From positions 462 to 64,461 of the forward strand of contig JBJKPQ010000069.1 of assembly GCA_046706305.1 (NCBI GenBank): a stretch of DNA of 64,000 bases. Direction: 5' to 3'. This document shows, in pieces, positions 1 to 19,979 of the stretch. The stretch comes from Bacteroidales bacterium. Its GTDB lineage: Bacteria; Bacteroidota; Bacteroidia; Bacteroidales; VadinHA17. Under the pieces are notes generated by a model, which had not been told where the DNA came from, ran no database searches, and saw only the letters and a program-made list of their open reading frames with translations. Each line of letters begins with the position of its first letter. The first letter of the stretch is position 1. A program made the translations under genes and the position numbers.

Positions 1-786
1 ATTTTCCAGGCTGAGGTGAACCTTGCAACTACGCGGTCAGATTATGAAAACAAACAGGTGGCCTTCGAAAATGCCAAGGACAATTTTAAAATACTTGTTG
101 GCATGGACCTGTATGATGATATCGTAGTAATACCAAACATTGCTGTTGATACGGTTAATGTAGATATAGCATTTGCCATTGACCACGGGCTACAGAACAG
201 GATGGAACTTCGTCAAAGCCAGATATCAATTGAGACATCACAGTTTGACCTTATACAGACAAAAGCACTGAATGAATTCAGAGGATCGCTTGGATTATCA
301 GTAGGGCTGTCCGGCGACAACCCCAAGCTGGGAAACATTTATGCCAAGCCGACTGATAACCAGAATGTATCATTATCACTGACAATCCCGCTCTGGGACT
401 GGGGAGAGAAAAAATCGAGGATAAAGGCCAGTGAAGCTGCCATAGAATCAAGCAAGGTCGACATGGAGTCGGAGCAGAATGATATAATCCTGGGAATAAG
501 ACAGAGTTACAGGAACCTGAACAACCTGAAGAACCAGATAGAGATAGCGCAACAGTCGGTGAAGAACGCACAGATGACGTATGATCTCAATCTCGAAAAA
601 TACAAAAACGGTGACCTTACCGGTATGGATCTTAATATTTACCAGAACCAGCTGTCAGAAAACAAACTGACTTATACCAATTCACTTATATCATATAAGC
701 TTGAACTACTAAACCTTAAAATACAGACTCTTTACGATTTTGAAAAAAAGCAACCCGTAATACCGGTAAAGACATTAAACCAGTAA
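1..786 (+). CDS. TolC-family outer membrane efflux protein, C-terminal part (5' end lies outside the window)
   Basis: Frame 1 is open from base 1, and the track ORF 16..786 starts at an internal GTG. The sequence is helical-repeat rich and ends in the Y/F-rich pattern typical of TolC/OprM C-terminal halves. MFP and RND genes follow immediately. Confidence 0.8.
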   Translation: MFQAEVNLATTRSDYENKQVAFENAKDNFKILVGMDLYDDIVVIPNIAVDTVNVDIAFAIDHGLQNRMELRQSQISIETSQFDLIQTKALNEFRGSLGLSVGLSGDNPKLGNIYAKPTDNQNVSLSLTIPLWDWGEKKSRIKASEAAIESSKVDMESEQNDIILGIRQSYRNLNNLKNQIEIAQQSVKNAQMTYDLNLEKYKNGDLTGMDLNIYQNQLSENKLTYTNSLISYKLELLNLKIQTLYDFEKKQPVIPVKTLNQ

Positions 787-798
787 AATCTATGACCT

Positions 799-1851
799 AT
801 GAGAAAAAATATATTATTATTCCTGGCAATCACCCTTGCAGTTATCGGCTGCAGGAACAGCACTCCTGACCTCAATGCTGATGTAGAGATTCCGGTATCG
901 GTTCAGGATGTGTCGCTAAAACCTATCGAAGAATATGTTAATACTTCCGGCACCGTATACCCTAAAGGAGATATTGAGCTGAAATCGGAGATCACTGCAC
1001 GCTACTTCCTTGAGAAGAACCCGGCAACAGGGAAACTCTGGCAACTGAACGACAGGGTCAGAACCGGCGATCTGATAGCAAGACTGGAAGACAGGGAATA
1101 CATCAACTCGATAAAGATGGAGACCACCCAGCTCAACCTCGATCTTACAGAAAGTGAGCTTAAAAAGCAACAATCACTCTTTGAAAAAGGAGGGGTTACA
1201 CAGAATGATCTGAAAACAGCCGAGATAAACTATGCCAATGCCAAAACAAACCTGGAAACGGCAAAGCTGCAAATGGAGAAAACCCGTATAGTGAGCCCTA
1301 TCGACGGAGTTATTGTTGACCTTCCTTATTACACCCAGGGTACACAAATACCTACCGGATCATCTGTTGTTAAGATCATGGATTTTAAAACCATGTATAT
1401 GGAGGTACAGTTGCCGGAAAAATATATATCACAGATCAAACCAGGTCAACCGGTAAAACTAACTAATTATACAATTCCCGATGATACAATCCCGGGCAGT
1501 GTCACCCAGCTGTCTCCTGCAATCGATCCTGATACCAGGACCTTTAAGGGATATATCTCGATTAACAATTCTGATTATCTTCTTCGTCCGGGAATGTTCG
1601 TTAAGGCAGATATTGTAACCAACCATAAAGATTCAGTTATAGTAATACCTAAAAATGTGATCCTCTCACGTCAAAGGGGTAAAACAGTTTTTGTTGTTGA
1701 CCGTGGTGTAGCCATGGAAAGAATTATTGAAACCGGCCTTGAGAACCTGACAGAAGTTGAAGTCACAAAAGGACTATCAAAGAACGATCGCCTTGTGACA
1801 AGCGGGTTTGAAACACTCAGCAACAGGTCGAAGGTAAAAATAGTTAAATAA
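799..1851 (+). CDS. Efflux RND transporter periplasmic adaptor (membrane fusion protein, HlyD/AcrA family), lipoprotein
   Basis: Lipoprotein signal LAVIGC. A coiled-coil hairpin segment (LNLDLTESELKKQQSLFEKGGVTQNDL...) is followed by beta-barrel motifs (IVSPIDGVI, PGMFV). The gene sits 12 nt after tolC and 5 nt before the RND permease. Confidence 0.9.
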   Translation: MRKNILLFLAITLAVIGCRNSTPDLNADVEIPVSVQDVSLKPIEEYVNTSGTVYPKGDIELKSEITARYFLEKNPATGKLWQLNDRVRTGDLIARLEDREYINSIKMETTQLNLDLTESELKKQQSLFEKGGVTQNDLKTAEINYANAKTNLETAKLQMEKTRIVSPIDGVIVDLPYYTQGTQIPTGSSVVKIMDFKTMYMEVQLPEKYISQIKPGQPVKLTNYTIPDDTIPGSVTQLSPAIDPDTRTFKGYISINNSDYLLRPGMFVKADIVTNHKDSVIVIPKNVILSRQRGKTVFVVDRGVAMERIIETGLENLTEVEVTKGLSKNDRLVTSGFETLSNRSKVKIVK

Positions 1852-1856
1852 CCGAT

Positions 1857-4800
1857 ATGAACAGGATAGCCCGTTTTGCCGTAAAATACCCGGTCACTGT
1901 CTTAATGTTCGTTCTTGGGATCATCCTTCTTGGATTTATTTCATTCGGAAAGCTGGGGACGGATTTATTTCCGGACCTTAATAATCCTAAGATATACATA
2001 GAGCTCAAAGCAGGAGAAAGGCCGCCGGAAGAAATAGAAAAGAACTATGTGGACCAGATAGAATCGCTTTCCATGCGTCAGAATGGCGTAGTACAGGTAT
2101 CATCAGTTTCGCAGGTAGGTGCTGCTACAATAACTGTTGAATACGATTGGAACAAGGATATGGACGAAGCCTTCCTCGACCTTCAGAAGGAACTTAATTC
2201 ATTCCGACAGAATTCTGACCTGGATGATCTGACACTTTCACAGTATGACCCTAATGCAGCACCTGTAATGATCCTTGGGTTAAGGAATAAAAACATTTCA
2301 AACCTCGACGAGGTCAGAAAAGTGGCCGAAAACTACATCAGGAACGAACTTGTTAGAATTGAGGGTATTGCCGATGTCAGGTTATCGGGGGTTGAAGAGA
2401 GCGAAGTTGTAATAGAGACCAATAAATACATCCTTGAATCATACGGGCTTTCAACCGACGCCATAGCTGCACAGATCAGCAACTATAACAGGAATGTTTC
2501 CGGGGGTTCAATAGTGGATATGGGACTTAAGTATGTAGTGAAAGGCGTCAGCGTTCTTAAAGACATCAACGACCTGCGTAACATAATAGTAGGCTTCAGG
2601 GAACCGGCCGCATTATCTTCTGCATCGGTCCAGAATGCTTCACAGTCGACCCAGGTGGCTGCCAGGGTCCCCGTCTATCTTAAGGATGTGGCAACGATAA
2701 AATATGAAAACAAGGACCCGGTCAATATAGTCACAATCAATGGAGAAAGGTGCATAGGTCTTTCTGTATATAAAGAACCCAAATTCAATACTGTTGATGC
2801 TGTAAAAAGTCTTGAAACGGAAGTGACCGCCCTCGAAAAAGCACTACCCGGTTATGAGTTCATTAAGGTGGAAGACCAGGGAAGCTATATTCACAAGGCA
2901 ATAAATGAGGTAACCAACACACTTATAATAGGAATAATACTGGCAGTCTTTGTAATATATCTTTTCCTGAGACGAATCGGAACCACCTTTGTTATCAGTG
3001 TAGCTATACCGGTATCCATAATAGCCACCTTCAACCTGATGTACTTCGATCATCTTACCCTTAATATAATGACACTGGGAGGTCTTGCCCTGGGAGCGGG
3101 CATGCTGGTTGACAATGCCATTGTGGTTCTCGAAAACATCACACGCAACCGGGAAGAAGGCATGAACCTGAAAGATGCTGTTATCAAGGGGACCGGTGAG
3201 GTGGGTGGGGCAATAACTGCCTCCACAATTACCACAATAGTGGTGTTCCTGCCGATAGTCTACCTTCACGGAGCCTCCGGAGAAATGTTCAGGGATCAGG
3301 CATGGACTGTTGCCTTTGCTCTTATCTCGTCTCTATTTGTGGCCATGCTTGTTATTCCAATGCTAGTGTCTACACTATTCGGGGATAAGAATAAAAAGAA
3401 AAAATATGACAATGCCATTCATTTCAACTGGTATACACCACTGCTTGAAAAGATTGTGGAACGGCGAAAGCTGGTTATCATTCTTTCAATATTGCTTATG
3501 GGAGGCACAGCTCTCCTTATACCCATGCTGGGAAGCGAATTTATGCCGAGGTCTGAATCGGCCGAATTTACAATCGACATAAAATTACCGGAAGGCACAA
3601 GTCTTGCCCGTACGGAGAGCACAGTAATTGAAGCGGAAAATGTTATAAGGTCGATGCTTGGCAAAAGAATAAAACTAGTCTATTGTCAGGCCGGTGCCGA
3701 TAATACAGCTGCTTCCGGTCAGTCTGGCGAGATAACAGGAGAAAACACTGCATCCATGAAAATCATTCTCTCTTCTGAATTTGCCTCAAAGACAGAAGAT
3801 GCCATTGCCGCGGTAAGTAATTACCTGAAAACAGTTCCCGACATGGAAGTCAGCTTTAAAAGGGAAGAAACAGCATTACAATCATCGCTGGGAACAGATG
3901 AATCGCCATTTACACTTGAGATTTCGGGGAAAGATTATTCAGAACTGGAGCAACTTGTTGACAAGTCGAGAGAGATCTTATTAAAGGATCCTGATCTGAC
4001 TAACATTACTACCTCCCTCGATGAGGGTACTCCTGAAGTTGACATTGATATTGACAGGTTCAAAACAAGCTATTATAATATAACTGTGGAGAGCATAATA
4101 AGCCAGGTAAGGAGCTATCTTGAAGGAGCTGATGCAGGTAACTTCGAAAGAGACGGAGAGATGACCGATATAACTATCAAGCTTGGTGACATCTCAATAA
4201 ACCAGCTTCGCGACCTGCTTATAACTGCAGGTACAGTAAAGGTTCCCCTCAGCGAACTGGCTGTTATAAAGACAGTGATGACACCGAGGGAGATTACAAG
4301 GAGAAACCAGGCCAGGACGTGCTACATATATGCCATGGTGAATAACAAAACACCTTTCGACAAGATTATCAGGAAAGCCAGGCAATTACTTAGTCCTGTT
4401 GTAATGCCTGTAGACTATAAGATGGAATTTACCGGGGAAGAACTGAAGAGGGAGGAATCGATGAAGAATCTTACTTTTGCATTAACCCTTTCTCTTATAC
4501 TTGTATTTATGGTACTGGCTGCACAATTCGAATCTCTTATACAGCCCTTTATCATTATGCTTACCATTCCCCTGGCAGGAGTGGGAACTGTCCTTACGTT
4601 CTTTATCCTTCACAAGTCCCTTAACATGATGGCATATATCGGGATTATAATGCTTGCCGGTATTGCTGTTAACAATGCCATAATATTAATAGACCGCATT
4701 AACCAGCTCAGGGAATCGGGGATGAACAGGAAAGAAGCCATTATATATGCAGGAAGCCAGAGGATAAGACCTATCCTCATGACCAGTCTGACTACCATAT

Positions 4801-4982
4801 TAGCATTGCTGCCCCTTACAATAGGCTTTGGCGACAGTGCCTCTCTGAGATCACCGATGGCCCTTGCAGTTATTGGAGGTATGATATCATCCACCCTGCT
4901 TACCCTGGTAGTGATACCATGTGTTTACTGGGTTTTTGACAGTTTCGGTAGCTGGCTTACAGGATCCGTTAAAACAAAATAG
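1857..4982 (+). CDS. Efflux RND transporter permease (AcrB/MdtB-like), 1041 aa
   Basis: Size and layout fit a 12-TM RND pump with two large periplasmic loops. Conserved TM4 region GLALGAGMLVDNAIVVLENI and TM10/11 region GIIMLAGIAVNNAIILID. Confidence 0.93.
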   Translation: MNRIARFAVKYPVTVLMFVLGIILLGFISFGKLGTDLFPDLNNPKIYIELKAGERPPEEIEKNYVDQIESLSMRQNGVVQVSSVSQVGAATITVEYDWNKDMDEAFLDLQKELNSFRQNSDLDDLTLSQYDPNAAPVMILGLRNKNISNLDEVRKVAENYIRNELVRIEGIADVRLSGVEESEVVIETNKYILESYGLSTDAIAAQISNYNRNVSGGSIVDMGLKYVVKGVSVLKDINDLRNIIVGFREPAALSSASVQNASQSTQVAARVPVYLKDVATIKYENKDPVNIVTINGERCIGLSVYKEPKFNTVDAVKSLETEVTALEKALPGYEFIKVEDQGSYIHKAINEVTNTLIIGIILAVFVIYLFLRRIGTTFVISVAIPVSIIATFNLMYFDHLTLNIMTLGGLALGAGMLVDNAIVVLENITRNREEGMNLKDAVIKGTGEVGGAITASTITTIVVFLPIVYLHGASGEMFRDQAWTVAFALISSLFVAMLVIPMLVSTLFGDKNKKKKYDNAIHFNWYTPLLEKIVERRKLVIILSILLMGGTALLIPMLGSEFMPRSESAEFTIDIKLPEGTSLARTESTVIEAENVIRSMLGKRIKLVYCQAGADNTAASGQSGEITGENTASMKIILSSEFASKTEDAIAAVSNYLKTVPDMEVSFKREETALQSSLGTDESPFTLEISGKDYSELEQLVDKSREILLKDPDLTNITTSLDEGTPEVDIDIDRFKTSYYNITVESIISQVRSYLEGADAGNFERDGEMTDITIKLGDISINQLRDLLITAGTVKVPLSELAVIKTVMTPREITRRNQARTCYIYAMVNNKTPFDKIIRKARQLLSPVVMPVDYKMEFTGEELKREESMKNLTFALTLSLILVFMVLAAQFESLIQPFIIMLTIPLAGVGTVLTFFILHKSLNMMAYIGIIMLAGIAVNNAIILIDRINQLRESGMNRKEAIIYAGSQRIRPILMTSLTTILALLPLTIGFGDSASLRSPMALAVIGGMISSTLLTLVVIPCVYWVFDSFGSWLTGSVKTK

Positions 4983-5010: not shown

Positions 5011-8000
5011 ATGAATTTTATTTTAAAAAGAAGAATCTTAATAAGCATGCTCTTCCTGGGGCTGACAATGCTTGGCTATGTGTCGTATAAGAAGTTATCT
5101 GTCGCCCTTTTTCCGAATGCACAGCTGCCAACACTTATTGTGCAGGTTGGAACCCCGCTTGAAGTGGATCCGGCTTATATAGAGAACCAGGCAGTCATTC
5201 CGCTCGAAGGAGCCATAGGGACACTGGAAGGGATTGAAAAGATAGAATCAAATATCACTTCCCAGTACGGGATAATAATGATTTACTACAACCAGAATGC
5301 TGATCTGAAATATGCCAACCTTAAATTACAGGAAAAGATAGATGCTGTGAAGGGAACACTGCCTTCAGAATTCATGGTTAATGTCATAAAGATCGATCTC
5401 CAGCAACTTACCAACCAATTCATGGAACTGCAGGTCAGAGGGGAAGGAGGTGTTGACAGGATAAGAAATTTTGCCGACAGGGAAATAAAACCCGACCTTG
5501 AGAATATTGACGGAATCGCAGGAGTCCAGGTTTATGGCGGCCAGGAAAACTCTATTGAAATACGGCTTAACGAAAGAGCCTGCAAAGCCAATGGAATTAC
5601 AATGGGCCAGATAAGGACACTACTAAACAATAATAGTGCCGGTAAAGCATTCGTTGGGAAAGTTGTAGACGGGACAGAGAAATACTTCGTAAATGTTGTT
5701 TCCGACTATACCAATGTCAGGGATATAGGGAACATAGTTGTAAAACAAAAGGGACCTGTACTTCTTAAAGATGTCGCACAGATATTTTTCGGTGTAAAAC
5801 AACAGACATCATACAGCAGGGTCAACGGACTCGATGCCGTTACAATAAGCCTTGTCAATGATAACCAGGCGAACCTTATCGACCTGTCGCACAAAGCACT
5901 TGCTGAAGTTGCTGCTTTGAATAAAAAACTTGCTTCTGCGGGTGTAAGTATTGTTGTTCAGAACAACAATGCAGAGACGATGGAAAATAATATAAACCAG
6001 ATAATTAACCTGGCAATAACAGGAGGTCTCCTGGCTATACTTATATTATGGTTCTTCCTCAGGAATATACGTCTGGTAACAATAATAGCCATATCCATCC
6101 CGGTTTCAGTCTATACTGCATTCAATTTCTTCTATGCCTTCGATGTGTCAATTAACAGCCTCACACTGGTTGGCATGGCTCTGGCGGTAGGTATGCTCGT
6201 TGATAACTCCGTTGTTGTGCTGGAGAATATATACAGGCTTGCGGGCCAGGGGAATAAGCCTGATATTGCCGTTAAACAGGGTACAGGAGAAGTATGGAGA
6301 TCTATATTTGCCGCTACCCTTACCACAATAATTGTTTTCCTTCCGTTTATTTTCTCTTCCAATTTCATGGTCAGGATCATAGGCAAAAACATAGGTGTAT
6401 CAATTATATCAACTCTGCTTATCTCACTTACAGTAGCCTTATTACTTATCCCAATGGCTACCTATTTCCTGCTTGGAAATTCATCGTACAGCAATTCCGA
6501 AGTCTTTAAGAAGCTCTCAATACACGACAGGCTTATACAGGCATACCATCTGGTTCTAAAATCGAGTATGAGAAACCCGGCAGGAACAATTATAGGAACC
6601 CTTGTTGTTTTCTTTGCCGCACTGCTTATAAGCCTCACACTGAGTATCAGCTCCACACAGGAGGTACAGACCCCCAATTTCAGGCTTTCTGTTACCATGC
6701 CCGGAGGATCAACACTTGAGAAGACCGATGCTGTTGTTTCCGAAATAGAATCCCGACTCAAATCCATTCCCGAGAAACAGGATATAGTCAGCAGAGTTGA
6801 AGAAGACAAGGCTACGGTAACAATTAACCTTGCAAAAGACTGGGACAAAAAGAGCAAGAGAACACTCCCGGAAATAAAGAGCGACATATCTGAAAAAATA
6901 AAAAACATATCCTCAGCCGAGATAAGTATGGATGAACTCACCTCAAGCGGTGGCTTCGCAAGTGCCGGAGGCGGTGGTGACGATACAGATAATCCCGGAT
7001 CGGATTTCATGAATCTTCTTGGTATTGGTTCTCAGAGCGAAAGCATAATTATAAAAGGGCAGAACTTCACCCAGATGAAGAACCTTGCCGATGACATCAA
7101 ATCCTACCTCGATAACATGTCGTCTATAAGCAGTTCCAGTGTCAATGTACAGGACAATAAGCCGGAAGTTCAGCTCCAGTTTGATATGGATTACATAGGA
7201 AGAAATAATATGACCCTTGGCAACCTCGCATCATCGCTGGCAACATTCGGACGTGAATATTCCTCGGGGGTGACTTTCAGGCAGGGCAATGAGACATATG
7301 ATATAATGATAAAATATGCCGGAGATACGATTAACCCGGTAGATAACCAGGACAAGACAATAGACGACCTGAAACATCTGGAAGTAACAGGCAATAACGG
7401 CTCTGTTATGGAGATGCAGGAACTCTCCAAAATTGTTTTCTCATCAGGGATGGGTAACATCCACAGGGAGAACCAGGAAAAAAGAGTAACGGTAACCTAC
7501 AGGTTTAACAGCGATATAAATAATTCAAAGGATCTGCTTGCAGGTGCCAGGATGGAAGTTGAATCAGTCGTTGCCGGCCTGAATATTCCATCCGGTATAG
7601 CAGTAGAGGTTGTTCATGAAGAGGATAACCTCAAGGATTTCTATTACCTTATAGGTGTTGCCTTTCTTCTGATTTATATGATTCTGGCTGCGGTATTTGA
7701 ATCAATGGCCACACCGGTTGTGCTCATGTTCAGTATCCCTCTGGCAGCATTGGGATCACTGATTGCACTTATTCTTACCGGAAACTCCCTGCTTAATGCC
7801 AATACACTGACAGGTTTTCTTATTTTACTGGGGGTGGTAGTCAATAACGGGATTATTCTTATTGATTATACGAATATTTTGCGAAGGAGAGGGTACCGTA
7901 TGCACAGAGCACTTATGACTGCCGGCGTATCAAGGATAAGGCCGATATTGATAACTGCTGCAACAACAATAATAGCCATGGTTCCGCTGGCTATGGGCCA

Positions 8001-9801
8001 TACAGAATATGTTTCTGTAATAGGAGCTTCATTTGCAATTACGGTAATAGGAGGACTGGCGTTGAGCACACTCCTGACATTGATATTCATCCCCACTTTT
8101 TATACCGGACTGGAGACAGCTCTTAAGTGGTTTTACGATCTTAACTGGAGGACCAAGATAATACAGCTTATACTTTTCAGCGTACTTATTTTCGTGATCT
8201 ACACTTATATAGACAAATTCCTGTGGAAGCTTATAACCACAATATTGTCGGTTATCATAATTCCTGCTTCAACATGGTTTGTCATGAACAGCCTTAGAAA
8301 AGCCAGGGAAACAGTAATAGATAAGGACGAGCCCATCAATATTTATATACAGAGTCTTGTTAAGATATATGAAAGGGAGAGCCGGTGGAAAAGAGAATGG
8401 AAAGCAGGATCGCGTATCAGGGAAAGACTGGAAATAAAAAAGAAATATACATCGTGGCAGGATCTTGAGCAGTTTATGTGGCAGGTGCCGTTGCTCGGAT
8501 TCATGATCTTCTTCACTTATGTATACCTTAACAAAGGGTTCTGGATCTTCTTCTTCAGTCTGCTTACATGGTTTGCCATTTCTGGTATGTGGGGTATATT
8601 AAAGGAACTCATTAATAACATTTACGGAGACAAAAAGAGAAAATGGCCCCGTAGAATCACAGGAGCAGCAGACTCTTTAGTCTACTGGTTAATCCCGCTT
8701 TTTAATCTTATCTGGTACCAGATGAGATGGAACAACATAATCGTGGTCATCATGCTTGGCACATTGTGGTTTGCCGGGTTATTCATTTACAGGACAGGGC
8801 AAAAGCTTACAAAAGAGAATACAGATATTTACAGGCTGGAAGGGAGATTCAGGAAAATCAGGAAAGCAATCTTTAAATTTGTTGCGGCTGTTCCGCTTAT
8901 AGGAAGAAAAAAGAAACCATTCAAGGCTCTGAGCTGCGTTACCCTTAACATAGGAAATGGTATGTTTGGCCTGCTTGGGCCCAACGGTGCAGGCAAAACA
9001 ACGCTTATGCGTATTATCTGCGGGATTCTTGAACAAAGCTACGGGAAGGTATGGATTAACGGCCTTGACACTCAGAAAATGAGGGAAGAACTGCAGGGCC
9101 TTATCGGTTACCTCCCGCAGGAATTCGGAAGTTACGAGAATATGACAGCAAACGATTACCTGCATTACCAGGCAATGCTTAAAAATATCATCGACAGAAA
9201 GGTAAGAGAAGAAAGGGTGACCTACGTGTTAAAAGCAGTCCATATGGAGGAGAGAAGACACGAAAGGATCAGTTCCTTCTCGGGAGGCATGAAACAAAGG
9301 ATGGGTATCGCACAGATACTGCTGCACCTTCCAAGGATACTTGTCGTTGATGAACCTACCGCTGGGCTTGATCCCCGCGAAAGAATAAGGTTCAGGAACC
9401 TTCTTGTAGAGCTTAGCCGGGAAAGAGTAGTGATTTTTTCCACCCATATTATAGAGGACATTTCGAGTTCATGTAACCAGGTTGCAGTGCTGAATAAAGG
9501 GAAGCTGAGATATTTGGGAAAACCTATTGATATGACAAAGGAAGCGGAAGGACATGTATGGCAGTTTAATATCCCTGCCGACTCCTTTAACGATTTCGTG
9601 GAAAATAATCTTGTGGTGCACCATATGTCGGAAGGCAATAATGTAAGGGTAAGAGTTGTATCGGAGTTTTCACCATGGGAAGGGGCTGTTCAGGCCAGCC
9701 CCAACCTCGAAGATGCATACCTCTGGCTGCTAAGAAAACATAATAATTCAGGTACTGTAAATAACAATTCGGGAAATGATGAAGACAAACAGACTGATTA
9801 A
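5011..9801 (+). CDS. Second RND permease (about residues 1-1040) fused in frame to extra TM helices and a C-terminal ABC-type ATP-binding domain (1596 aa from the ATG at 5011)
   Basis: RND motifs GMALAVGMLVDNSVVVLENI and GVVVNNGIILIDY are present, and the RND body ends near 8130. Six further hydrophobic helices follow. Then come Walker A GPNGAGKTT (from 8977), signature SGGMKQR (from 9280) and Walker B ILVVDEPTAGLD (about 9337-9372). There is no stop codon anywhere in the frame. I place the start at ATG 5011 (MNFILKRR...) rather than the track GTG 4921, which overlaps the upstream gene by 62 nt. Confidence 0.85.
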   Translation: MNFILKRRILISMLFLGLTMLGYVSYKKLSVALFPNAQLPTLIVQVGTPLEVDPAYIENQAVIPLEGAIGTLEGIEKIESNITSQYGIIMIYYNQNADLKYANLKLQEKIDAVKGTLPSEFMVNVIKIDLQQLTNQFMELQVRGEGGVDRIRNFADREIKPDLENIDGIAGVQVYGGQENSIEIRLNERACKANGITMGQIRTLLNNNSAGKAFVGKVVDGTEKYFVNVVSDYTNVRDIGNIVVKQKGPVLLKDVAQIFFGVKQQTSYSRVNGLDAVTISLVNDNQANLIDLSHKALAEVAALNKKLASAGVSIVVQNNNAETMENNINQIINLAITGGLLAILILWFFLRNIRLVTIIAISIPVSVYTAFNFFYAFDVSINSLTLVGMALAVGMLVDNSVVVLENIYRLAGQGNKPDIAVKQGTGEVWRSIFAATLTTIIVFLPFIFSSNFMVRIIGKNIGVSIISTLLISLTVALLLIPMATYFLLGNSSYSNSEVFKKLSIHDRLIQAYHLVLKSSMRNPAGTIIGTLVVFFAALLISLTLSISSTQEVQTPNFRLSVTMPGGSTLEKTDAVVSEIESRLKSIPEKQDIVSRVEEDKATVTINLAKDWDKKSKRTLPEIKSDISEKIKNISSAEISMDELTSSGGFASAGGGGDDTDNPGSDFMNLLGIGSQSESIIIKGQNFTQMKNLADDIKSYLDNMSSISSSSVNVQDNKPEVQLQFDMDYIGRNNMTLGNLASSLATFGREYSSGVTFRQGNETYDIMIKYAGDTINPVDNQDKTIDDLKHLEVTGNNGSVMEMQELSKIVFSSGMGNIHRENQEKRVTVTYRFNSDINNSKDLLAGARMEVESVVAGLNIPSGIAVEVVHEEDNLKDFYYLIGVAFLLIYMILAAVFESMATPVVLMFSIPLAALGSLIALILTGNSLLNANTLTGFLILLGVVVNNGIILIDYTNILRRRGYRMHRALMTAGVSRIRPILITAATTIIAMVPLAMGHTEYVSVIGASFAITVIGGLALSTLLTLIFIPTFYTGLETALKWFYDLNWRTKIIQLILFSVLIFVIYTYIDKFLWKLITTILSVIIIPASTWFVMNSLRKARETVIDKDEPINIYIQSLVKIYERESRWKREWKAGSRIRERLEIKKKYTSWQDLEQFMWQVPLLGFMIFFTYVYLNKGFWIFFFSLLTWFAISGMWGILKELINNIYGDKKRKWPRRITGAADSLVYWLIPLFNLIWYQMRWNNIIVVIMLGTLWFAGLFIYRTGQKLTKENTDIYRLEGRFRKIRKAIFKFVAAVPLIGRKKKPFKALSCVTLNIGNGMFGLLGPNGAGKTTLMRIICGILEQSYGKVWINGLDTQKMREELQGLIGYLPQEFGSYENMTANDYLHYQAMLKNIIDRKVREERVTYVLKAVHMEERRHERISSFSGGMKQRMGIAQILLHLPRILVVDEPTAGLDPRERIRFRNLLVELSRERVVIFSTHIIEDISSSCNQVAVLNKGKLRYLGKPIDMTKEAEGHVWQFNIPADSFNDFVENNLVVHHMSEGNNVRVRVVSEFSPWEGAVQASPNLEDAYLWLLRKHNNSGTVNNNSGNDEDKQTD

Positions 9802-10495
9802 TATTATTAACCTGATCTACAGGATGATCACCTATAACCTGAAGATCATTTTTGCAAACCGTTTTATCTGGTTCCTGGCAGGTTCTGTAGCCTTTTACCT
9901 TGGATTGTCGGTTATTTATGTCTTCCAGGTTGCTGTGGCCCGTGTAAATGATCTTTACGGAGTCTTTTTATTCTCCGGGTTACTGCTTGTTTTTTATCCA
10001 TCCGTATTTGGCATACAGAATGACCAGGATGCCCGTACAATTGAGATTTTATTCGGCATTCCAAATTACAGGTACAAGGTTTGGCTGGTAAGGATCGTAC
10101 TCATCTTTTCAGTTTCTTTTCTGATAATGACAGGATTCACATTCCTTTCTTCGGTGCTTATCGTGAAATTCCCGTTTGTAAAAGTTGCGGCTCAGGTAAT
10201 GGTTCCTGTCATTTTCATCGGTATGATGGCCTTTATGCTTTCCACGGTAATCAGAAACGGCAACGGGACAGCTGTGGTGATGATAATATTCGGGCTGTTT
10301 TTCCTTATTCTTAGTGATTCTCTTCAGAAAAGCCAGTGGAATATTTTTCTGAATCCCTATGAACCACCTTACGATGTGAATGAGACAACCTGGGCAATAA
10401 TAACCCTTAAAAACAGGATCATACTTTTTTCGGGTTCAATAGTTTTCCTGCTTGCAGCACTCTTCAATCTTCAAAAAAGAGAAAAATTTATGTAG
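9776..10495 (+). CDS. Polytopic membrane protein, ABC-2-type permease-like (6 predicted TM helices)
   Basis: 239 aa with six hydrophobic segments and no soluble domain. It overlaps the stop of the upstream ATPase-containing ORF by 26 nt; an alternative ATG lies at 9824. Position and size fit the permease partner of an ABC-2 ATPase. Confidence 0.6.
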   Translation: MMKTNRLINIINLIYRMITYNLKIIFANRFIWFLAGSVAFYLGLSVIYVFQVAVARVNDLYGVFLFSGLLLVFYPSVFGIQNDQDARTIEILFGIPNYRYKVWLVRIVLIFSVSFLIMTGFTFLSSVLIVKFPFVKVAAQVMVPVIFIGMMAFMLSTVIRNGNGTAVVMIIFGLFFLILSDSLQKSQWNIFLNPYEPPYDVNETTWAIITLKNRIILFSGSIVFLLAALFNLQKREKFM

Positions 10496-10496
10496 T

Positions 10497-11681
10497 TCAG
10501 GATAAGGGTATTTTCATATCCACTCTTGCACCACGGTCGTTGTTATTTGAGAGAACGATGGTACCATTATGTGCTTCCATTATCATTTTGGCAAGAGGAA
10601 GACCGAGTCCCTGCGCGTTATCTTCTTTTTTATCACCAAATGAAAATATATTGAAGGCTTCCTTCATAATTTGATTATTGAAACCTTCTCCCTGGTCCCT
10701 TACTGAAATATTAATAAATTCATTCTCAGCCGTTGTTACAATTTCCACTTCACTGCCGGGAGGGGAAAATTTAACAGCATTATCAATGACATTTCTCAGA
10801 CATAGCTTCAAGAGTTCCCTCTCAGCTTTTATGTTATTACCGGTCCCTGTATAAACCCTGATCCGGATATCTTTCGACTGTATCTTTTCAATTCTGTCAG
10901 CCAGTACCCTGTCTATTATTTCATCCAGATGTACATCTTCCGGACAGATCTCTTTTGGCTTTGTCTTTAGACGGGTGATCAGCAAAGCATTTACTGAAAA
11001 CTGTTCAAGCCGCTGGACTGAAGCGTCGAGTATATTAACAAGAGCACTTATGTCTGCTGAACAATCCGATTCCTTTATGAGCTCTATGGGCCCCACCATA
11101 CCATTAAGCGGTGTCCTTATCTCATGGCTGATAAGATTCAAAAATTCCGATTTAGCTCTGTCGAGGTCGAGTAATTTTTCATTTAACATTTCCAGTTTCT
11201 CATTTGCCACTTTCAGTTGTGCGGTCCTTTCCTGAACCATGTCCTCAAGAGTGCAGTTTAAATCCTTAAGCTGTTCTATAGTAACCTTAAGTTTAAGGTG
11301 AGTTTTTACCCTCGACATAAGTTCCCTGCTGTCGAAGGGTTTTGTGACATAATCCTGTGCTCCTATTTCAAATCCCTTTAACATACTATCCCTCTCGGTA
11401 TTTGCAGAAAGAAAGATCACAGGCATATTATTATATTTGTTGTTCCCTCTTATCTCCCTGCAAACCTCAAACCCATTCATACCAGGCATATTAATGTCGA
11501 GCAATACCAGGTCAAAACTCTTTTTTTGAAGCCATTCCAGCGCTCCTTCACCACTTGTAGCAAACTCCACAGAAAACAGTTCTTCTTTTAGCAGGTTTCC
11601 TAATATCTGTAGGTTATAAGGATTATCATCAACAATAAGAATAACCGGACCAGTTGCTTCAGGGGGATTTATGTCGACCAT
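10497..11681 (-). CDS. Hybrid two-component protein: N-terminal receiver (REC) domain, coiled coil, HisKA and HATPase_c
   Basis: REC motifs ILIVDDNPYN, LVLLDINMPGMNG and KPF. H-box SHEIRTPLNG. G-boxes DQGEGF and GLGLPLAK. Confidence 0.9.
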   Translation of the reverse strand: MVDINPPEATGPVILIVDDNPYNLQILGNLLKEELFSVEFATSGEGALEWLQKKSFDLVLLDINMPGMNGFEVCREIRGNNKYNNMPVIFLSANTERDSMLKGFEIGAQDYVTKPFDSRELMSRVKTHLKLKVTIEQLKDLNCTLEDMVQERTAQLKVANEKLEMLNEKLLDLDRAKSEFLNLISHEIRTPLNGMVGPIELIKESDCSADISALVNILDASVQRLEQFSVNALLITRLKTKPKEICPEDVHLDEIIDRVLADRIEKIQSKDIRIRVYTGTGNNIKAERELLKLCLRNVIDNAVKFSPPGSEVEIVTTAENEFINISVRDQGEGFNNQIMKEAFNIFSFGDKKEDNAQGLGLPLAKMIMEAHNGTIVLSNNNDRGARVDMKIPLS

Positions 11682-11693
11682 GATTTAAAAAGT

Positions 11694-14600
11694 TTAATGT
11701 TTTTCAATACTATCAAGAAGGGATTTAAATTTTTCAATAAGTTTAAGCATCTCAGGGATATTGAATCTCTCGGCAGCATTCAGTACAGCTTTCCCGTAAG
11801 AAGTAATTATGGACGCATTATGATTTTCTCCCAGTTGTATCAGATCTTTGCCAAAATTTTTAATATCATCAAGAGGCTGGGTGGTGGAGAAAGAATTCCA
11901 TCTCACCAGGAAGTCTGATTCCAGAGATTTTATCAAACCCAGCAAATCAATAATCTCATTTAAGTTTTTCTCTTCATGGCTTTCAAAATCATGTTCAATC
12001 TCATTTTTAGTTCTGTAAGGCAGAATATTCATAAGAGTAAGGTACAGGTCGGTGATATTGACAGGCTTCATCAGAAGGCCAACAAAGTCACTTTTATAGA
12101 TCCTTTCTTTTTGTGTTTTAAGTACTGAAGCAGAGTACGCCAGTACAGGGACATCCTTTAGCCCGGGGTCTTCTTTCACCTTCTTTAGAAGTTGAAACCC
12201 ATCCATCCCGGGCATTCTGATATCAGCCACAATTAGATCGGGATGTATTTTACGTGCCAGTTTAAGACCGGGAATTCCTCCCGCAGCGGTATATACTTTT
12301 ATTCCGGTTTCTTTCAGTGCATCCTGCAGGTAATTCCTGTTATGCTCTATATCGTCAACTACAAGTATTGAAGCTTTGTTAAATACCACATCAGCCGGAT
12401 TAAGGGTTATCTCATTGTTCACAGTACTGTATTCGTTACGATAACTTATACCCGGAAGAAGAACAGTAAATTTGCTTCCCTTTCCCTTTTCGGATTCAAG
12501 TTTTATTGATCCGTCCATTAATGAAACAAGCCTTCTGCTAATTGCCAGTCCAAGACCGGTTCCGGTATGTTGTTTAAAATTATCACCCTGGATAAAAGGC
12601 TCAAAAACATTACGCTGTTGTTCTGTTGAAATACCTATACCGGTATCTTCAACTTCAATGATCAGATCAAGTACATTCTCCTTCCTGGCTTCTGAATATT
12701 CAACCAGGCGGGGATTTTGAGTTAATACCCTCAGGGTAATAACCCCTTTATTGGTAAACTTAACAGCATTACCCAGGAGGTTGAATACTATCTGACGCAG
12801 CCGTGCTTCATCAATATAGATACCGGAAGGTGTTCCTGAAGTGATATCCAGAAGAAACTGCAGGCCCTTTTCCGATATTTTATGAGAAAAGATTCTTTCA
12901 AATTCCGCGAAAAACAATTTTGATTCTACAAATCCGAATTCAAGCTCCAGCTTACCAGCTTCAATCTTCGACAGATCGAGAATATCGTTAATCAGTGTAA
13001 GAAGACTCTTGCCGCTTGTCTTAATCGAATTTACATAATTTTTAAGGTTCTCATCCGTGATTGAATGTGCAAGCAGGTCGGTATATCCCAGGACTGCATT
13101 CATAGGGGTCCGTATTTCATGACTCATATTGGCCAGGAACTCACTCTTTGCCCTGTTGGCTTCTTCAGCAGTTTTCCTTGCCTGTTTAAGAGCAATCTCC
13201 GACATTTTTCTTTCCGTGATATCAAAAAGTGTGGACCTGCTTTGCATATAGTTACCACTGCTATCATATACTGCTGTACCATTGAGGCTTATAAAGAAAG
13301 TTGAGCCATCCTTTCTTATAAGTTCAAATTCAAGGTTGTTGATATAGCCGGTCTTCTTGAATTTTGGAAAATTATCACGGAATGTCTCAACACTGCTTCC
13401 CGTTAATAGTTCTGTGAAGGTCTTTTTATTCACAAGTTCTTCCTTTGTATACCCCAACCAGTTTACCTCAGTGTTGTTGATTCTTATTATTCTCCCGTTA
13501 ACATCCAGAGAGTGGTAACCACATGGTGCATTTTCATAAAGGTCGCTTGTCTCTTCAATTGCCCTGTTAAGTTCTGCAGTCCTTGCTGCTATAAGTTCCT
13601 CAAGATGCAGACGATACTTATCAAGTTCCTCACGGTTCTTTTTTGTTTCGGAAATATCACGGCAACTGCCAAAGACCATACCTCCCGGAAGTATGACAGC
13701 ATTGAGATCGGCGTATACTGTTCTGCCATCTTTTGCCAGCAGACCTATCTCCGTTCTGAATTTCCCCCTTTCAAGGATTTTCCTGAAGATCATAAGATGA
13801 TCTTTCTCCATGCCGGGAGGTGAGAGATTTGCTATTGTCATGAAAAGCATCTCCTGCTGGCTGTAACCAAGAAGTGTTTCAGATGCTTTATTCACGAAGA
13901 TATACTTTCCGTTCTCGTCGGTTATAAATATTGCATCAGCAGAATTTTCAGTGATAGAACGGAATTTTTCTTCACTTTCCTTTAAGGAATTCTCAGCATT
14001 CCTTTTTTCTGTCATGTCCTGTGAAAAGATAACAAGTCCTTCAGGTACAGGCTGCATATTAAGTTCAAACCATCCTTTGGATCCGTCGGGATATGTGAAC
14101 TCATTAAGCATTAAATGTTGTTGTCTTTTCTCCATGGACCATTTGAGATTACGGAACATTTTAGTGTCTTCTATGCCCGGATATATCTCATTCATTGATT
14201 TACCCAACATGACCGAGGCAGTAGTTTTGGCCTGTTTTTCCACCTCCCTGTTAACATAAAGGTATTTATAGTCAAAGCTGATTATCTGGCACCCTTCGAG
14301 CATATTATCCAGGGTGGAACGAAAACGTTCCTCATTTCTTGATAATGATGCGGTGCGTTCTTTAACACGTGTCTCCAGCCTGTCATTAAGTATTTTTACC
14401 TCATCCAGTGCTTTCCTCCGCTGAACAATATTCCGTCGAATGAAAATAAATATAATGATGAGCAACAACAGCAGAACAGGAAGGTTGATATATGCTATCA
14501 TCTGTGCCTTATGGGAATGTTCTGCCTCAACAGCATTACGGGCAAGAAGTTTCCTGTTCTCTTCATATCGTAAGGTATCGATCAATGCTTTAATTCTTTC

Positions 14601-17425: not shown

Positions 17426-17442
17426 TTGATAATATTTTTATT

Positions 17443-18585: not shown

Positions 18586-18593
18586 GACACAGA

Positions 18594-19538: not shown

Positions 19539-19969
19539 TACAATATGTATTTTATTTTAATATCAATTGTTTTATTATCTCTGCCAATGGTGAACTTCGA
19601 ATCATCAAAACTTGGTGGCCCCATTGTCTTTGGATTGTTGGAAGAACCCAGGCCTTCTTTAGGGATTCCAATAAAATTGGTGTCGGTCTTTCCATTATCA
19701 TTGGCATCATGTACTACTGCAACCGAATATATCCCTGGTTCAAGGTCGTTAAACACAGCCTGTGATTTCTTATTGATTATATCAGCTACCACCTTTCTGA
19801 AAGCTTTCTCAGGGGCTGTAGGAAAACCATCTTTTTTATTATAAAGGTATACATCACATTTACCCTTATCATTCCTGAAACCCGTAACTTCAACAGTTAA
19901 TCTCGTTGTCTGTCCGTATGCCGGGAAAATTAAGGACATTAAGAGCATGAAAAATATGGCGTACTTCAT
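19538..19969 (-). CDS. DUF2141-family secreted protein
   Basis: Signal peptide MKYAIFFMLLMSLIFPAYGQ and the characteristic block VHDANDNGKTDTNFIGIPKEGLGSSNNPK..GPPSFDDSKF. I place the start at ATG 19969; the longer track ORF reaching 20038 would overlap the upstream ATPase gene. Confidence 0.8.
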   Translation of the reverse strand: MKYAIFFMLLMSLIFPAYGQTTRLTVEVTGFRNDKGKCDVYLYNKKDGFPTAPEKAFRKVVADIINKKSQAVFNDLEPGIYSVAVVHDANDNGKTDTNFIGIPKEGLGSSNNPKTMGPPSFDDSKFTIGRDNKTIDIKIKYIL

Positions 19970-19979
19970 CACAATTTTT

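What the first reader, a model, noticed from the sequence alone, without database searches (positions are those of the whole stretch)
5011..9801. Single 1596-codon ORF covalently fusing a complete RND permease to an ABC ATPase
The frame runs from the RND N-terminus (MNFILKRRILISMLFLGL) through both RND signature regions and then through six extra hydrophobic helices. It continues into a full nucleotide-binding domain (GPNGAGKTT, SGGMKQR, ILVVDEPTAGLD, THIIED) without a stop. The added helices come as 2 plus 4. That is topologically consistent with the RND C-terminus and the NBD both being cytoplasmic, which argues for a real fusion rather than an accidental read-through. A secondary-active RND pump carrying its own ATPase would be mechanistically novel. 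Possible roles are ATP gating of the pump or an RND scaffold for an ABC-2 exporter.
Basis: seen in the sequence. Interest (0 to 1): 0.8.

Follow-up and report, generated by a model that had tools for sequence, protein, structure and literature searches.

The report
RND efflux pump fused to ABC ATPase
One 1596-residue protein really does join a complete proton-driven RND efflux pump subunit to a complete ATP-driven ABC motor; this fusion sits in a conserved five-gene operon in at least about 600 bacterial species, including gut Bacteroides and Tannerella forsythia, and I found no paper describing it.

Summary
ORF 5011-9801 encodes a full RND permease (Pfam ACR_tran, E 2e-160) followed by six membrane helices and a complete ABC ATPase domain (NBD).

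Full-length fused homologues fill the top 120 database clusters. A scan of species genomes found 593 loci, a lower bound. Of the best 80, 63 carry an intact fused ORF, 11 are cut by contig ends, and 6 are interrupted but keep all parts.

- **Split ATPase.** Its first strand and adenine-stacking tyrosine (aa 1107-1121) lie before the last four helices. Removing aa 1122-1298 in silico restores a gap-free alignment to ABCA1 and ABCA3 ATPase domains.
- **Partner permease.** The 239-aa gene downstream is present in 80 of 80 loci and folds like a type V (ABC-2) permease.
- **Conserved operon.** The order is always outer-membrane channel, adaptor, unfused RND paralogue, fused RND-ABC, permease.

All ATPase catalytic residues and the RND intramembrane charged residues are invariant or nearly so in 78 proteins.

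Most likely this is a composite envelope-spanning exporter that couples an ATP-driven type V ABC stage to an RND stage. Mechanism and substrate are inferred, not shown. Seven literature searches found no description.

The parts
16..786 (+). C-terminal half of an outer-membrane factor (TolC-like channel); its start is cut off by the window edge
   Evidence: Pfam OEP E 1e-28 and TIGR01844. Found in the same position in all 64 loci long enough to show it.
799..1851 (+). Periplasmic adaptor (membrane fusion protein), 350 aa
   Evidence: TIGR01730 RND_mfp at 194.5 bits, above its cut-off of 94.9; also HlyD_D23. Syntenic in 64 loci.
1857..4982 (+). RND1: an unfused RND permease paralogue, 1041 aa, 30% identical to the RND part of the fusion
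   Evidence: ACR_tran E 5e-223. Pairwise alignment. Present directly upstream of the fusion in 75 of 80 loci; the other 5 are cut by contig ends.
5011..9801 (+). The fused gene: RND2, two helices, split ABC ATPase with a four-helix insertion, and a C-terminal regulatory-type domain (1596 aa)
5011..8115 (+). RND2 permease module (aa 1-1035; 12 membrane helices and two large periplasmic loops)
   Evidence: ACR_tran aa 2-1032. Nearest solved structures are MdtB and ZneA. TM4 D398, TM4 E405 and TM10 D952 are invariant in 78 of 78 proteins; TM11 R977 in 77 of 78.
8146..8289 (+). Helical hairpin TMa-TMb (aa 1046-1093), which returns the chain to the cytoplasm
   Evidence: Hydropathy. Conserved hydrophobic pattern and a conserved proline across distant homologues. 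The basic stretch NSLRKAR follows it.
8329..8373 (+). First beta strand and A-loop of the ATPase domain (aa 1107-1121, PINIYIQSLVKIYER), separated from the rest of the domain
   Evidence: I1111 and K1118 occur in 78 of 78 proteins and Y1120 in 77 of 78. AlphaFold2 predicts a strand at aa 1109-1117, at low confidence. With the insert excised in silico, this segment aligns gap-free to strand 1 of the ABCA1 and ABCA3 ATPase domains and to positions 4-15 of the GldA profile.
8374..8904 (+). Insertion of about 177 residues inside the ATPase domain (aa 1122-1298): basic loop, four membrane helices (aa 1155-1263, nt 8473-8799), then an amphipathic basic helix
   Evidence: Hydropathy. AlphaFold2 helices over aa 1149-1269 with block pLDDT 69-86, and a helix at 1281-1293. 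The linker is found only inside fused proteins of 1550-1585 aa or their fragments.
8905..9555 (+). Remainder of the ATPase core (aa 1299-1515): Walker A, Q-loop, signature, Walker B, D-loop, H-loop
   Evidence: ABC_tran E 2e-27. Nearest solved structures are the ABCA3, ABCA4, ABCA1 and ABCA7 ATPase domains, then TM_0544 (1vpl), TM_1403 (4yer) and NosF. All catalytic residues occur in 78 of 78 proteins. It is the most conserved region, at 93%.
9556..9735 (+). C-terminal domain (aa 1516-1575), comparable to the regulatory domains that follow the ATPase core in NosF, TM_1403 and ABCA proteins
   Evidence: 80% conserved among close homologues. Foldseek alignments to 4yer and NosF span about 280-290 columns, which is the ATPase core plus this domain. 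The model is only moderately confident.
9776..10495 (+). 239-aa six-helix membrane protein: the putative type V (ABC-2) permease partner of the fused ATPase. Its start overlaps the end of the fusion by 26 nt
   Evidence: Present directly downstream in 80 of 80 loci. There is no Pfam or PDB sequence hit. AlphaFold2 gives pLDDT 78 and pTM 0.77. The top 15 Foldseek PDB hits are NosY, PmtCD, ABCG25, ABCG5/8 and the CcmABCD complex, with KpsM and ABCA4 further down; among those top 15, probability is 0.95-1.00 and query TM-score 0.42-0.62.

Best explanation
**What it is.** This is a genuine, old and conserved gene fusion at the centre of a five-gene envelope-spanning export machine. The genes are an outer-membrane channel, a periplasmic adaptor, an unfused RND permease (RND1), an RND permease covalently joined to an ABC ATPase (RND2::NBD), and a small type V (ABC-2) permease.

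**Shown here:**
- The fused protein keeps a full RND module with its buried acidic and basic residues.
- Two helices bring the chain back to the cytoplasm.
- The chain then makes strand 1 and the A-loop tyrosine of an ABCA/DrrA-class ATPase domain.
- It leaves for a four-helix membrane bundle and returns to complete a catalytically intact ATPase with a C-terminal regulatory-type domain.

**Inferred mechanism:**
- The ATPase pairs with the downstream permease to form a type V ABC unit that is anchored to the RND complex by the 2 + 4 helices.
- The ABC unit uses ATP to extract or flip an amphiphilic substrate from the cytoplasm or inner leaflet to the outer leaflet or periplasm.
- The RND unit, still driven by the proton gradient, captures the substrate there and expels it through the adaptor and the outer-membrane channel. 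This would make a two-stage, dual-energy conveyor.
- The invariable presence of one unfused RND paralogue suggests a heterotrimer of one RND1 and two RND2. That would supply exactly the two ATPase domains an ABC motor needs, by analogy with the MdtB2C heterotrimer.

**Unknown.** The substrate.
For: **Real and conserved**
- The top 120 protein clusters are 77-91% identical, 1566-1606 aa long, and all carry ACR_tran plus ABC_tran.
Of the best 80, 63 have an intact fused ORF of at least 1500 aa and 11 are cut by contig ends. The other 6 are interrupted but still hold every part in order.

**One origin**
- The linker occurs only in fused proteins or their fragments, down to 23-27% identity.

**Operon**
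- The same five genes occur in the same order wherever the contig allows. Nothing downstream is conserved.

**Both energy modules under selection**
- The Walker A lysine, Q-loop Q, signature SGG, Walker B D, catalytic E, D-loop D and H-loop H are each present in 78 of 78 proteins.
- In the RND module, TM4 D398, TM4 E405 and TM10 D952 occur in 78 of 78 and TM11 R977 in 77 of 78.
- The ATPase is the most conserved part, at 93% against 80% for the RND module.

**Split ATPase**
- Excising aa 1122-1298 in silico gives gap-free alignments to the ABCA1 and ABCA3 ATPase domains starting at strand 1.
- This raises total scores from 178.6 to 194.3 bits (ABCA3) and from 167.1 to 192.5 bits (ABCA1).
- The GldA profile alignment extends from profile position 16 to position 4. 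Scrambled and other-segment controls show no extension.

**ABC class and partner**
- The ATPase is nearest to ABCA-family proteins and NosF.
- The downstream protein folds like NosY, PmtCD and the ABCG membrane domains.

**Topology**
- The even helix count and positive-inside loops place the ATPase in the cytoplasm.
Against: - There is no experimental evidence of any kind, and the substrate is unknown.
- Pairing of the ATPase with the downstream permease rests on gene adjacency and on a fold match with modest Foldseek E-values (0.016-0.2) and no sequence-level hit.
- The AlphaFold2 model of the C-terminal module is weak (pLDDT 68.6, pTM 0.41), so no domain packing can be read from it.
- Both RND1 and RND2 have Asn at the positions of AcrB D408 and K940. 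Proton coupling of the AcrB type is therefore not demonstrated.
- The 1:2 heterotrimer idea is pure inference.
- The closest structural relative of the ABC part, NosDFY, is a mechanotransducer rather than a transporter. That favours the rival explanation.
Confidence: 0.55

Rival explanations
1. ATP-driven mechanotransmission or gating. The ABC unit (ATPase, four-helix insert and 239-aa protein) transports nothing itself. Instead it uses ATP binding and hydrolysis to push conformational changes into the attached RND permease or the adaptor. ATP would then power, prime or gate the pump, as in NosDFY, MacB, LolCDE or FtsEX.
For: - The best structural matches for both the permease-like protein (NosY) and the bacterial ATPase (NosF) come from NosDFY. 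From my own knowledge, NosDFY is regarded as a mechanotransducer.
- The ATPase is wired into the membrane by an unusual four-helix insertion and is covalently tied to RND2. That suits force transmission.
- Both RND paralogues lack the AcrB-type D408 and K940 residues.
Against: - The RND intramembrane D398, E405, D952 and R977 are invariant or nearly so. That argues for a retained ion-coupled cycle.
- RND1 carries the same relay residues and has no ATPase.
- A complete six-helix type V permease is conserved, which is more than a mere anchor would need.
Confidence: 0.27
2. Co-localisation only. Two independent transporters, an RND tripartite pump and a type V ABC exporter, are tethered for co-expression, co-assembly or a shared substrate pool. 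There is no mechanical or sequential coupling between them.
For: - Gene fusions often mark merely functionally related partners. This is general knowledge rather than a result obtained here.
- Each module looks complete on its own.
Against: - The fusion, its specific linker and the gene order are maintained from Bacteroides to distant GC-rich lineages.
- No unfused version of this ATPase subfamily or of the linker was seen among 80 loci and 96 representative clusters. One possible exception is a 526-aa protein that may be a truncated gene call.
- A loose association would be expected to break up repeatedly.
Confidence: 0.12
3. Artefact. The long ORF results from a sequencing or assembly error, or a one-off read-through that joins two neighbouring genes.
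For: None found. Six of 69 complete loci have interrupted ORFs, which shows such errors or pseudogenes occur in the opposite direction.
Against: - Hundreds of independent assemblies carry the same uninterrupted frame. They include isolate genomes of Bacteroides faecis, B. faecichinchillae, Tannerella forsythia, Parabacteroides massiliensis, Prolixibacter, Mariniphaga and Maribellus.
- The junction region is conserved as protein.
Confidence: 0.01

Closest known systems
MdtABC-TolC of E. coli (heteromultimeric RND pump; MdtB structure 9lyq)
   Same: - One adaptor gene is followed by two tandem RND paralogue genes.
- MdtB is the best solved-structure hit for the RND module.
- It works in a tripartite context with an outer-membrane channel.
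   Different: - No ATPase, no extra helices and no ABC-2 permease.
- MdtB keeps the Asp-Asp and Lys relay, whereas this protein has Asp-Asn and Asn.
- NCBIfam equivalog scores are far below cut-off: 262.6 and 369.4 bits against 1584.
MacAB-TolC and other ABC-powered tripartite pumps
   Same: An ATP-binding cassette is associated with an adaptor and an outer-membrane channel in one operon.
   Different: - MacB has an N-terminal ATPase, four helices and a periplasmic domain of the FtsX type.
- This protein has no FtsX domain. The periplasmic machinery is an RND permease and the ABC part is of the type V (ABCA/DrrA) class.
NosDFY (NosF ATPase with NosY permease; PDB 7o0y, 7znq)
   Same: - Among bacterial proteins it is one of the three nearest solved relatives of the ATPase, after TM_0544 (1vpl) and TM_1403 (4yer).
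- It gives the best fold match for the 239-aa protein.
- Its ATPase also carries a C-terminal regulatory domain.
   Different: - NosF is a separate soluble subunit with an uninterrupted ATPase domain.
- Its partner is the periplasmic NosD, not an RND pump.
Eukaryotic ABCA lipid exporters (ABCA1, ABCA3, ABCA4, ABCA7)
   Same: - Highest sequence similarity to the ATPase, including strand 1. For example, 'IQSLVKIYERKKKPF' here aligns with ABCA1 'IKELTKIYRRKRKPA'.
- Type V membrane-domain fold.
- A regulatory domain follows the ATPase.
   Different: - ABCA proteins are full transporters with huge extracellular domains.
- They have no RND module and no membrane insertion inside the ATPase.
GldA/GldF (Bacteroidota gliding ABC transporter) and DrrAB
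   Same: - Best NCBIfam hits for the ATPase.
- A separate permease of about 240 aa with six helices, like GldF (own knowledge).
   Different: - Scores are well below the equivalog and subfamily cut-offs: 170 against 402.6 for GldA, and 159.2 against 312.45 for DrrA.
- The operon has no GldG-like gene. The ATPase is fused to an RND permease.

Membership tests
RND superfamily permease (Pfam ACR_tran) | Full-length match to the 12-helix permease with two large periplasmic loops | tested here: met
   ACR_tran E 2e-160, covering profile positions 3-1018 of 1021 at aa 2-1032. Hydropathy shows the expected helix clusters.
AcrB-type (HAE-1) multidrug RND pumps | Proton relay of TM4 Asp-Asp (D407, D408), TM10 Lys (K940) and TM11 Arg (R971) | tested here: not met
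   The D407 and R971 equivalents are conserved (D398 in 78 of 78, R977 in 77 of 78). The D408 position is Asn in 77 of 78 and the K940 position is Asn in 78 of 78. All NCBIfam RND models score below their cut-offs; the best is 464 bits against 1250.
Tripartite RND efflux system | Operon with a periplasmic adaptor and an outer-membrane factor | tested here: met
   OEP and RND_mfp genes lie upstream in the window and in all 64 loci long enough to show them.
Heteromultimeric RND pumps (MdtBC or MuxBC type) | Two tandem RND paralogues that assemble into one heterotrimer | not testable with these tools
   The tandem paralogues are present (30% identity; 75 of 80 loci). Assembly and stoichiometry cannot be tested. 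MdtB and MdtC equivalog cut-offs are not reached.
ABC ATPase (Pfam ABC_tran) | Walker A, Q-loop, LSGGQ-type signature, Walker B with catalytic Glu, D-loop, H-loop | tested here: met
   ABC_tran E 2e-27. Every one of these residues is present in 78 of 78 proteins.
ABC ATPase (Pfam ABC_tran) | Contiguous domain with the A-loop aromatic residue about 25 residues before Walker A | tested here: not met
   The A-loop tyrosine (Y1120) lies 203 residues before the start of Walker A (aa 1323), separated from it by four membrane helices. Contiguity is restored only by excising aa 1122-1298 in silico. The ATPase domain is therefore split.
Type V (ABC-2) exporters | ATPase of the DrrA/ABCA class | tested here: met
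   The best profile hits are GldA and DrrA. The best solved relatives are ABCA3, ABCA4, ABCA1 and ABCA7, then TM_0544 (1vpl), TM_1403 (4yer) and NosF.
Type V (ABC-2) exporters | Six-helix permease with an N-terminal amphipathic helix and the ABC-2 fold | tested here: inconclusive
   At the fold level, the top 15 Foldseek hits for the 239-aa protein are all type V transporter chains (NosY, PmtCD, ABCG25, ABCG5/8, CcmABCD), with probability 0.95-1.00 and query TM-score 0.42-0.62. E-values are only 0.016-0.2. At the sequence level there is no Pfam or PDB hit beyond faint ABC2_membrane matches at E 0.1-0.5.
GldA equivalog (TIGR03522) | Score above the curated cut-off of 402.6 bits | tested here: not met
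   170 bits.
MacB/FtsX-type ABC tripartite pump | FtsX-type four-helix permease with a periplasmic domain, fused to or paired with the ATPase | tested here: not met
   No FtsX domain is found in the fusion or in the 239-aa protein. An unrelated FtsX-type system lies elsewhere in the window.

The most novel reading that the evidence does not exclude
A single machine uses two energy sources in series. An ATP-driven type V ABC stage takes an amphiphilic substrate, possibly a lipid or other envelope component, from the cytoplasmic side. It hands the substrate directly to a proton-driven RND stage that expels it across the outer membrane. The clash between threefold RND symmetry and twofold ABC symmetry would be resolved by a heterotrimer of one RND1 and two RND2::NBD. 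The ATPase would communicate with the membrane through a four-helix bundle inserted into its own fold. That would be the first known transporter to couple primary and secondary active transport covalently, and a one-pass route from cytoplasm to exterior.
Probability: 0.3. Interest if true: 0.9.

Novelty: new variant of a known kind. Interest (0 to 1): 0.75.

Why it matters
Tripartite efflux pumps are textbook cases of being powered either by the proton gradient (RND, MFS) or by ATP (MacB, HlyB types).

**What is new here.** A conserved protein hard-wires both engines together. Its ATPase is itself threaded into the membrane. This challenges the either/or picture.

**An open question it could address.** How do substrates made in, or entering, the cytoplasm reach RND pumps, which load from the periplasm or outer leaflet?

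**Why it is tractable.** The family is abundant: 593 species genomes confirmed as a lower bound, and thousands of 90%-identity clusters of the partner permease. It occurs in cultured bacteria, including gut Bacteroides and Parabacteroides and the periodontal pathogen Tannerella forsythia. Genetics, biochemistry and cryo-EM are therefore feasible.

**Practical point.** RefSeq names these proteins 'efflux RND transporter permease subunit', which hides the ATPase. Resistome and transporter surveys will misclassify them.

Tried and rejected
- **Degenerate proton relay in the fused RND only.** Rejected. RND1 and RND2 share the same Asp-Asn and Asn-Asn pattern.
- **Linker helices as a duplicated or degenerate copy of the downstream permease.** Rejected. 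hhalign probability is 0.2%.
- **A stand-alone 'linker plus ATPase' family as ancestor.** Not found. Every full-length representative with the linker is a fused protein of 1550-1585 aa, and the rest look like fragments. One 526-aa protein (P0149) that starts at TMa remains ambiguous.
- **Genome scan with the linker alignment.** It failed because no stretch was conserved enough. I replaced it with two family-specific ATPase-tail motifs, ERIRFRN and FSTHI[IV]ED.
- **Sequence-level identification of the 239-aa protein.** Pfam, NCBIfam and a PDB profile search gave nothing significant. Only the predicted fold was informative.
- **AlphaFold2 model of aa 1036-1596.** It was too uncertain (pTM 0.41) to show whether strand 1 packs on the ATPase sheet. 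The in-silico excision test replaced it.
- **Profile search with the linker for more diverse sequences.** It returned only fragments.
- **Conserved neighbours beyond the five genes.** None. The best downstream gene cluster appears in 11 of 80 loci and consists of housekeeping genes. The two hybrid histidine kinases next to the operon in the window are not conserved.
- **Literature.** Seven full-text searches and two targeted readings found no description of an RND-ABC fusion. Subscription-only papers and TCDB could not be checked.
- **One cluster look-up was wasted.** A coordinate slip dropped the last codon. It was repeated correctly.
Full report
**1. The observation**

The window has an uninterrupted ORF from ATG 5011 to the stop at 9799-9801, 1596 codons long. 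An in-frame GTG at 4921 lies upstream. Homologues begin at the equivalent of MNFI..., so 5011 is the likely start.

Pfam places ACR_tran on aa 2-1032, covering almost the whole 1021-position profile (E 2e-160). It places ABC_tran on aa 1318-1451 (E 2e-27).

Hydropathy finds the 12 RND helices and then six more hydrophobic segments in a 2 + 4 pattern. These lie at about aa 1046-1066 and 1070-1093, then 1155-1174, 1175-1198, 1216-1234 and 1238-1263. The Lys/Arg-rich loops fall on the predicted cytoplasmic side. An even helix count after the cytoplasmic RND C-terminus puts the ATPase in the cytoplasm.

**2. Is the fusion real?**

Yes.
- A search of about 5.8 billion proteins with the whole protein returned fused proteins only in its best 120 clusters. 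These are 1566-1606 aa long, 77-91% identical and cover 98-100% of the query. Each carries both Pfam domains.
- A search of 1.84 billion representatives with the linker alone (aa 1036-1305) found 96 clusters. Every full-length one is 1550-1585 aa with the linker at about residues 1030-1295. The rest have fragment-like lengths. The linker therefore has no independent existence and the fusion has one origin.
- I scanned one genome per species (185,579 species) with two motifs specific to this ATPase tail, ERIRFRN and FSTHI[IV]ED.
- Of the 80 best loci, 63 have an intact fused ORF of at least 1500 aa and 11 are cut by contig ends. The other 6 have an interrupted frame but keep RND, linker and ATPase in order, so they are sequencing errors or pseudogenes.
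- Carriers include isolates of Bacteroides faecis, B. faecichinchillae, Bacteroides sp. 224, Tannerella forsythia, Parabacteroides massiliensis, Prolixibacter bellariivorans, Mariniphaga sediminis and Maribellus maritimus.
- They also include many Bacteroidales metagenome-assembled genomes, plus bins labelled Saprospiraceae, Chlorobiota and KSB1.
- The window itself is closest to Rikenellaceae and Bacteroidales bins. The short ATPase-tail query is 97-98% identical in loci L001 to L005. L004, an uncultured Bacteroidales bin, is the closest over all modules.
- RefSeq calls these proteins 'efflux RND transporter permease subunit'. The B. faecis cluster at 90% identity has 2426 members.

**3.

*(a) The ATPase domain is split.*
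- In the cytoplasmic loop between extra helices 2 and 3 lies PINIYIQSLVKIYER (aa 1107-1121).
- Across 78 fused proteins, I1111 and K1118 are invariant and Y1120 occurs in 77 of 78. Those proteins are the query, 63 genome loci and 14 distant representatives.
- The pattern I-x-I-x-x-L-x-K-x-Y is that of strand 1 of ABC ATPases, ending in the A-loop aromatic residue that stacks on adenine (own knowledge).
- In the native sequence the GldA profile alignment starts only at profile position 16.
- Joining aa 1104-1121 to aa 1297 onward extends it to position 4. Scrambled and other-segment controls do not.
- The clearest test joins aa 1104-1121 to aa 1299 onward. This gives gap-free phmmer alignments to both ATPase domains of ABCA1 and ABCA3, starting at strand 1.
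- For example, 'IQSLVKIYERKKKPFKAL' aligns with ABCA1 'IKELTKIYRRKRKPAVD' and 'IQNLVKVYRDGMK'.
- Total scores rise from 178.6 to 194.3 bits (ABCA3) and from 167.1 to 192.5 bits (ABCA1).
- So about 177 residues (aa 1122-1298) are an insertion between the A-loop and strand 2. They hold a basic loop, four membrane helices and an amphipathic basic helix.
- AlphaFold2 predicts a strand at aa 1109-1117 and four helices over aa 1149-1269 with block pLDDT 69-86. The model as a whole is weak (pLDDT 68.6, pTM 0.41), so I draw no packing conclusions from it.

*(b) The ATPase class.*
- Its nearest solved relatives are the ABCA3, ABCA4, ABCA1 and ABCA7 ATPase domains (E 1e-51 to 4e-46). Next come TM_0544 (1vpl), TM_1403 (4yer) and NosF.
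- By fold, the nearest are TM_1403, NosF and the ABCA proteins, with alignments that include the C-terminal domain.
- The best profiles are GldA and DrrA, both far below their cut-offs.
- This is the type V (ABC-2) class of ABC transporters.

*(c) The partner permease.*
- The next gene (9776-10495) overlaps the end of the fusion by 26 nt. It encodes a 239-aa six-helix protein with no Pfam, NCBIfam or PDB sequence match.
- It is present directly downstream in 80 of 80 loci. Its family has at least 5871 clusters at 90% identity.
- Its AlphaFold2 model (pLDDT 78, pTM 0.77) matches type V transporter structures. These are NosY, PmtCD, ABCG25, ABCG5/8 and the CcmABCD complex in ranks 1-15, then KpsM and ABCA4 further down.
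- For the top 15, probability is 0.95-1.00 and query TM-score 0.42-0.62. Foldseek E-values are only 0.016-0.2.
- I read it as the membrane domain that the fused ATPase drives. This is inferred from fold and invariable adjacency.
- It is not homologous to the linker helices.

*(d) The operon.*
- The gene order is outer-membrane factor (16-786, cut by the window edge), adaptor (799-1851), RND1 (1857-4982), the fusion, and the permease.
- This order is conserved wherever the contig is long enough: RND1 in 75 loci, adaptor and outer-membrane factor in 64.
- RND1 is 30% identical to the RND part of the fusion.
- Nothing downstream is conserved. The best gene cluster appears in 11 of 80 loci and is housekeeping. 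The neighbouring hybrid histidine kinases are not part of the unit.

**4. Are both engines functional?**

- In 78 proteins every canonical ATPase residue is invariant. These are the Walker A Lys, Q-loop Gln, signature Ser-Gly-Gly, Walker B Asp, catalytic Glu, D-loop Asp and H-loop His.
- The ATPase is the most conserved part of the protein, at 93% identity among close homologues. The RND module is at 80% and the linker at 56-72%.
- The RND module keeps its buried charged residues: TM4 D398 and E405 and TM10 D952 in 78 of 78, and TM11 R977 in 77 of 78.
- At the positions of AcrB D408 and K940 both RND2 and RND1 have Asn.
- The RND part is therefore not an AcrB-type equivalog. The difference is a feature of the clade, not a decay linked to the fusion.
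- Both modules are under strong purifying selection. That argues against a vestigial ATPase or a vestigial proton path.

**5. How it most likely works**

*Shown:* a covalent RND-ABC protein with a membrane-inserted split ATPase; a conserved five-gene unit; intact catalytic residues in both modules.

*Inferred:*
- The ATPase and the 239-aa permease form a type V ABC unit held against the RND complex by the 2 + 4 helices.
- ABC motors work as ATPase dimers, whereas RND pumps are trimers (established knowledge).
- The constant presence of one unfused paralogue suggests a heterotrimer with two fused subunits and one RND1. That would supply exactly two ATPase domains. E. coli MdtB2C is the precedent (own knowledge).
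- RND pumps load from the periplasm or outer leaflet. Type V ABC exporters such as ABCA, ABCG, Wzm and PmtCD move amphiphiles out of the inner leaflet or cytoplasm (own knowledge).
- The most economical model is therefore a two-stage conveyor. ATP-driven extraction or flipping comes first, followed by proton-driven expulsion through the adaptor and outer-membrane channel.
- I give the overall statement 0.55. The structural and evolutionary parts alone deserve about 0.9, and the specific relay mechanism about 0.3-0.4.

*Main rival (0.27):* the ABC unit transports nothing and instead transmits ATP-driven force to the RND or adaptor, as NosDFY, MacB and LolCDE do. Independent co-localised transporters (0.12) and an artefact (0.01) are less likely.

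**6. Comparison with known systems**

- It works like a tripartite RND pump of the MdtABC kind and, in part, like a NosFY-type or ABCA-type ABC system.
- It is a member of the RND superfamily and of the ABC ATPase superfamily by their defining features.
- It fails the tests for AcrB-type relay, for GldA, MdtB and MdtC equivalogs, and for MacB/FtsX architecture.
- Its ATPase violates the usual contiguity of the domain.
- I found no description of an RND-ABC fusion in seven full-text searches. Targeted readings of a Bacteroides transportome paper (PMC6281302) and of the large 2021 review of tripartite systems (PMC8277102) also found nothing.
- Subscription literature and TCDB were not searchable, so prior mention cannot be excluded.
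- The sequences themselves are public and automatically annotated.

**7. Verdict**

I class it as a new variant of a known kind: a hybrid-energised tripartite exporter with a split, membrane-inserted ATPase. It is widespread, occurs in cultured organisms and is undescribed in the literature I could search. Interest 0.75.

Noticed in passing
window 16076-20681, minus strand: A second, unrelated tripartite-looking export operon: an outer-membrane factor (OEP, 449 aa), an FtsX-type permease (380 aa), a HlyD-type adaptor (314 aa) and two small ORFs that I did not scan (19538-20038, 19980-20681). It resembles a MacAB-type system and lies 6 kb from the RND-ABC operon.
   Followed up: partly
window 10497-15698, minus strand: Two hybrid sensor kinases lie convergent to the operon. 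One is a 394-aa receiver-HisKA-HATPase protein. The other is a 1334-aa CHASE3-PAS-HisKA-HATPase-receiver protein. They are not conserved next to the operon in other genomes (weak hits in 2 of 80 loci), so they are probably not its regulators.
   Followed up: partly
window about 6920-7010 (aa ~637-667 of the fusion): The second periplasmic loop region of RND2 carries a glycine-rich, low-complexity insertion (SSGGFASAGGGGDDTDNPGSDF...LLGIG). Distant homologues also have a Gly-rich stretch followed by a conserved LxGIG there. RND1 has a different insertion at that place.
   Followed up: no
fusion aa 941-953 (window about 7831-7869) and RND1 TM10: TM10 of RND2 ends in an invariant Asp followed by Tyr (IDY; D952 in 78 of 78, Y953 in 70 of 78). 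The AcrB Lys940 position is Asn. This recalls the Asp-Tyr pairs of MmpL3-type RND proteins (own knowledge) and may point to a different proton path.
   Followed up: no
protein P0149 (representative library, 526 aa): One protein starts with a methionine at helix TMa and contains only the linker and ATPase. It is either a gene call truncated at a contig end or a rare natural split of the fusion. The contig could not be inspected.
   Followed up: no
locus L012 (JBLNAO010000361.1): A contig binned as Chloroflexota carries an operon whose modules are 62-88% identical at protein level to the Bacteroidales/Rikenellaceae-type window. This is probably a binning error rather than a Chloroflexota occurrence.
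   Followed up: no
window 36299-43738, minus strand: A 2479-aa SprA homologue (type IX secretion translocon; SprA_N E 6e-212) confirms a Bacteroidota origin. NusA and IF-2 (23244-27555) and a GH65 plus alpha-amylase pair (28098-33824) lie between it and the operon.
   Followed up: partly
loci L008, L011, L021, L035, L037, L069: Six genomes, several of them from long-read assemblies, have the fused gene interrupted by frameshifts or stops while keeping all modules. I did not determine whether these are sequencing errors or real pseudogenes.
   Followed up: partly
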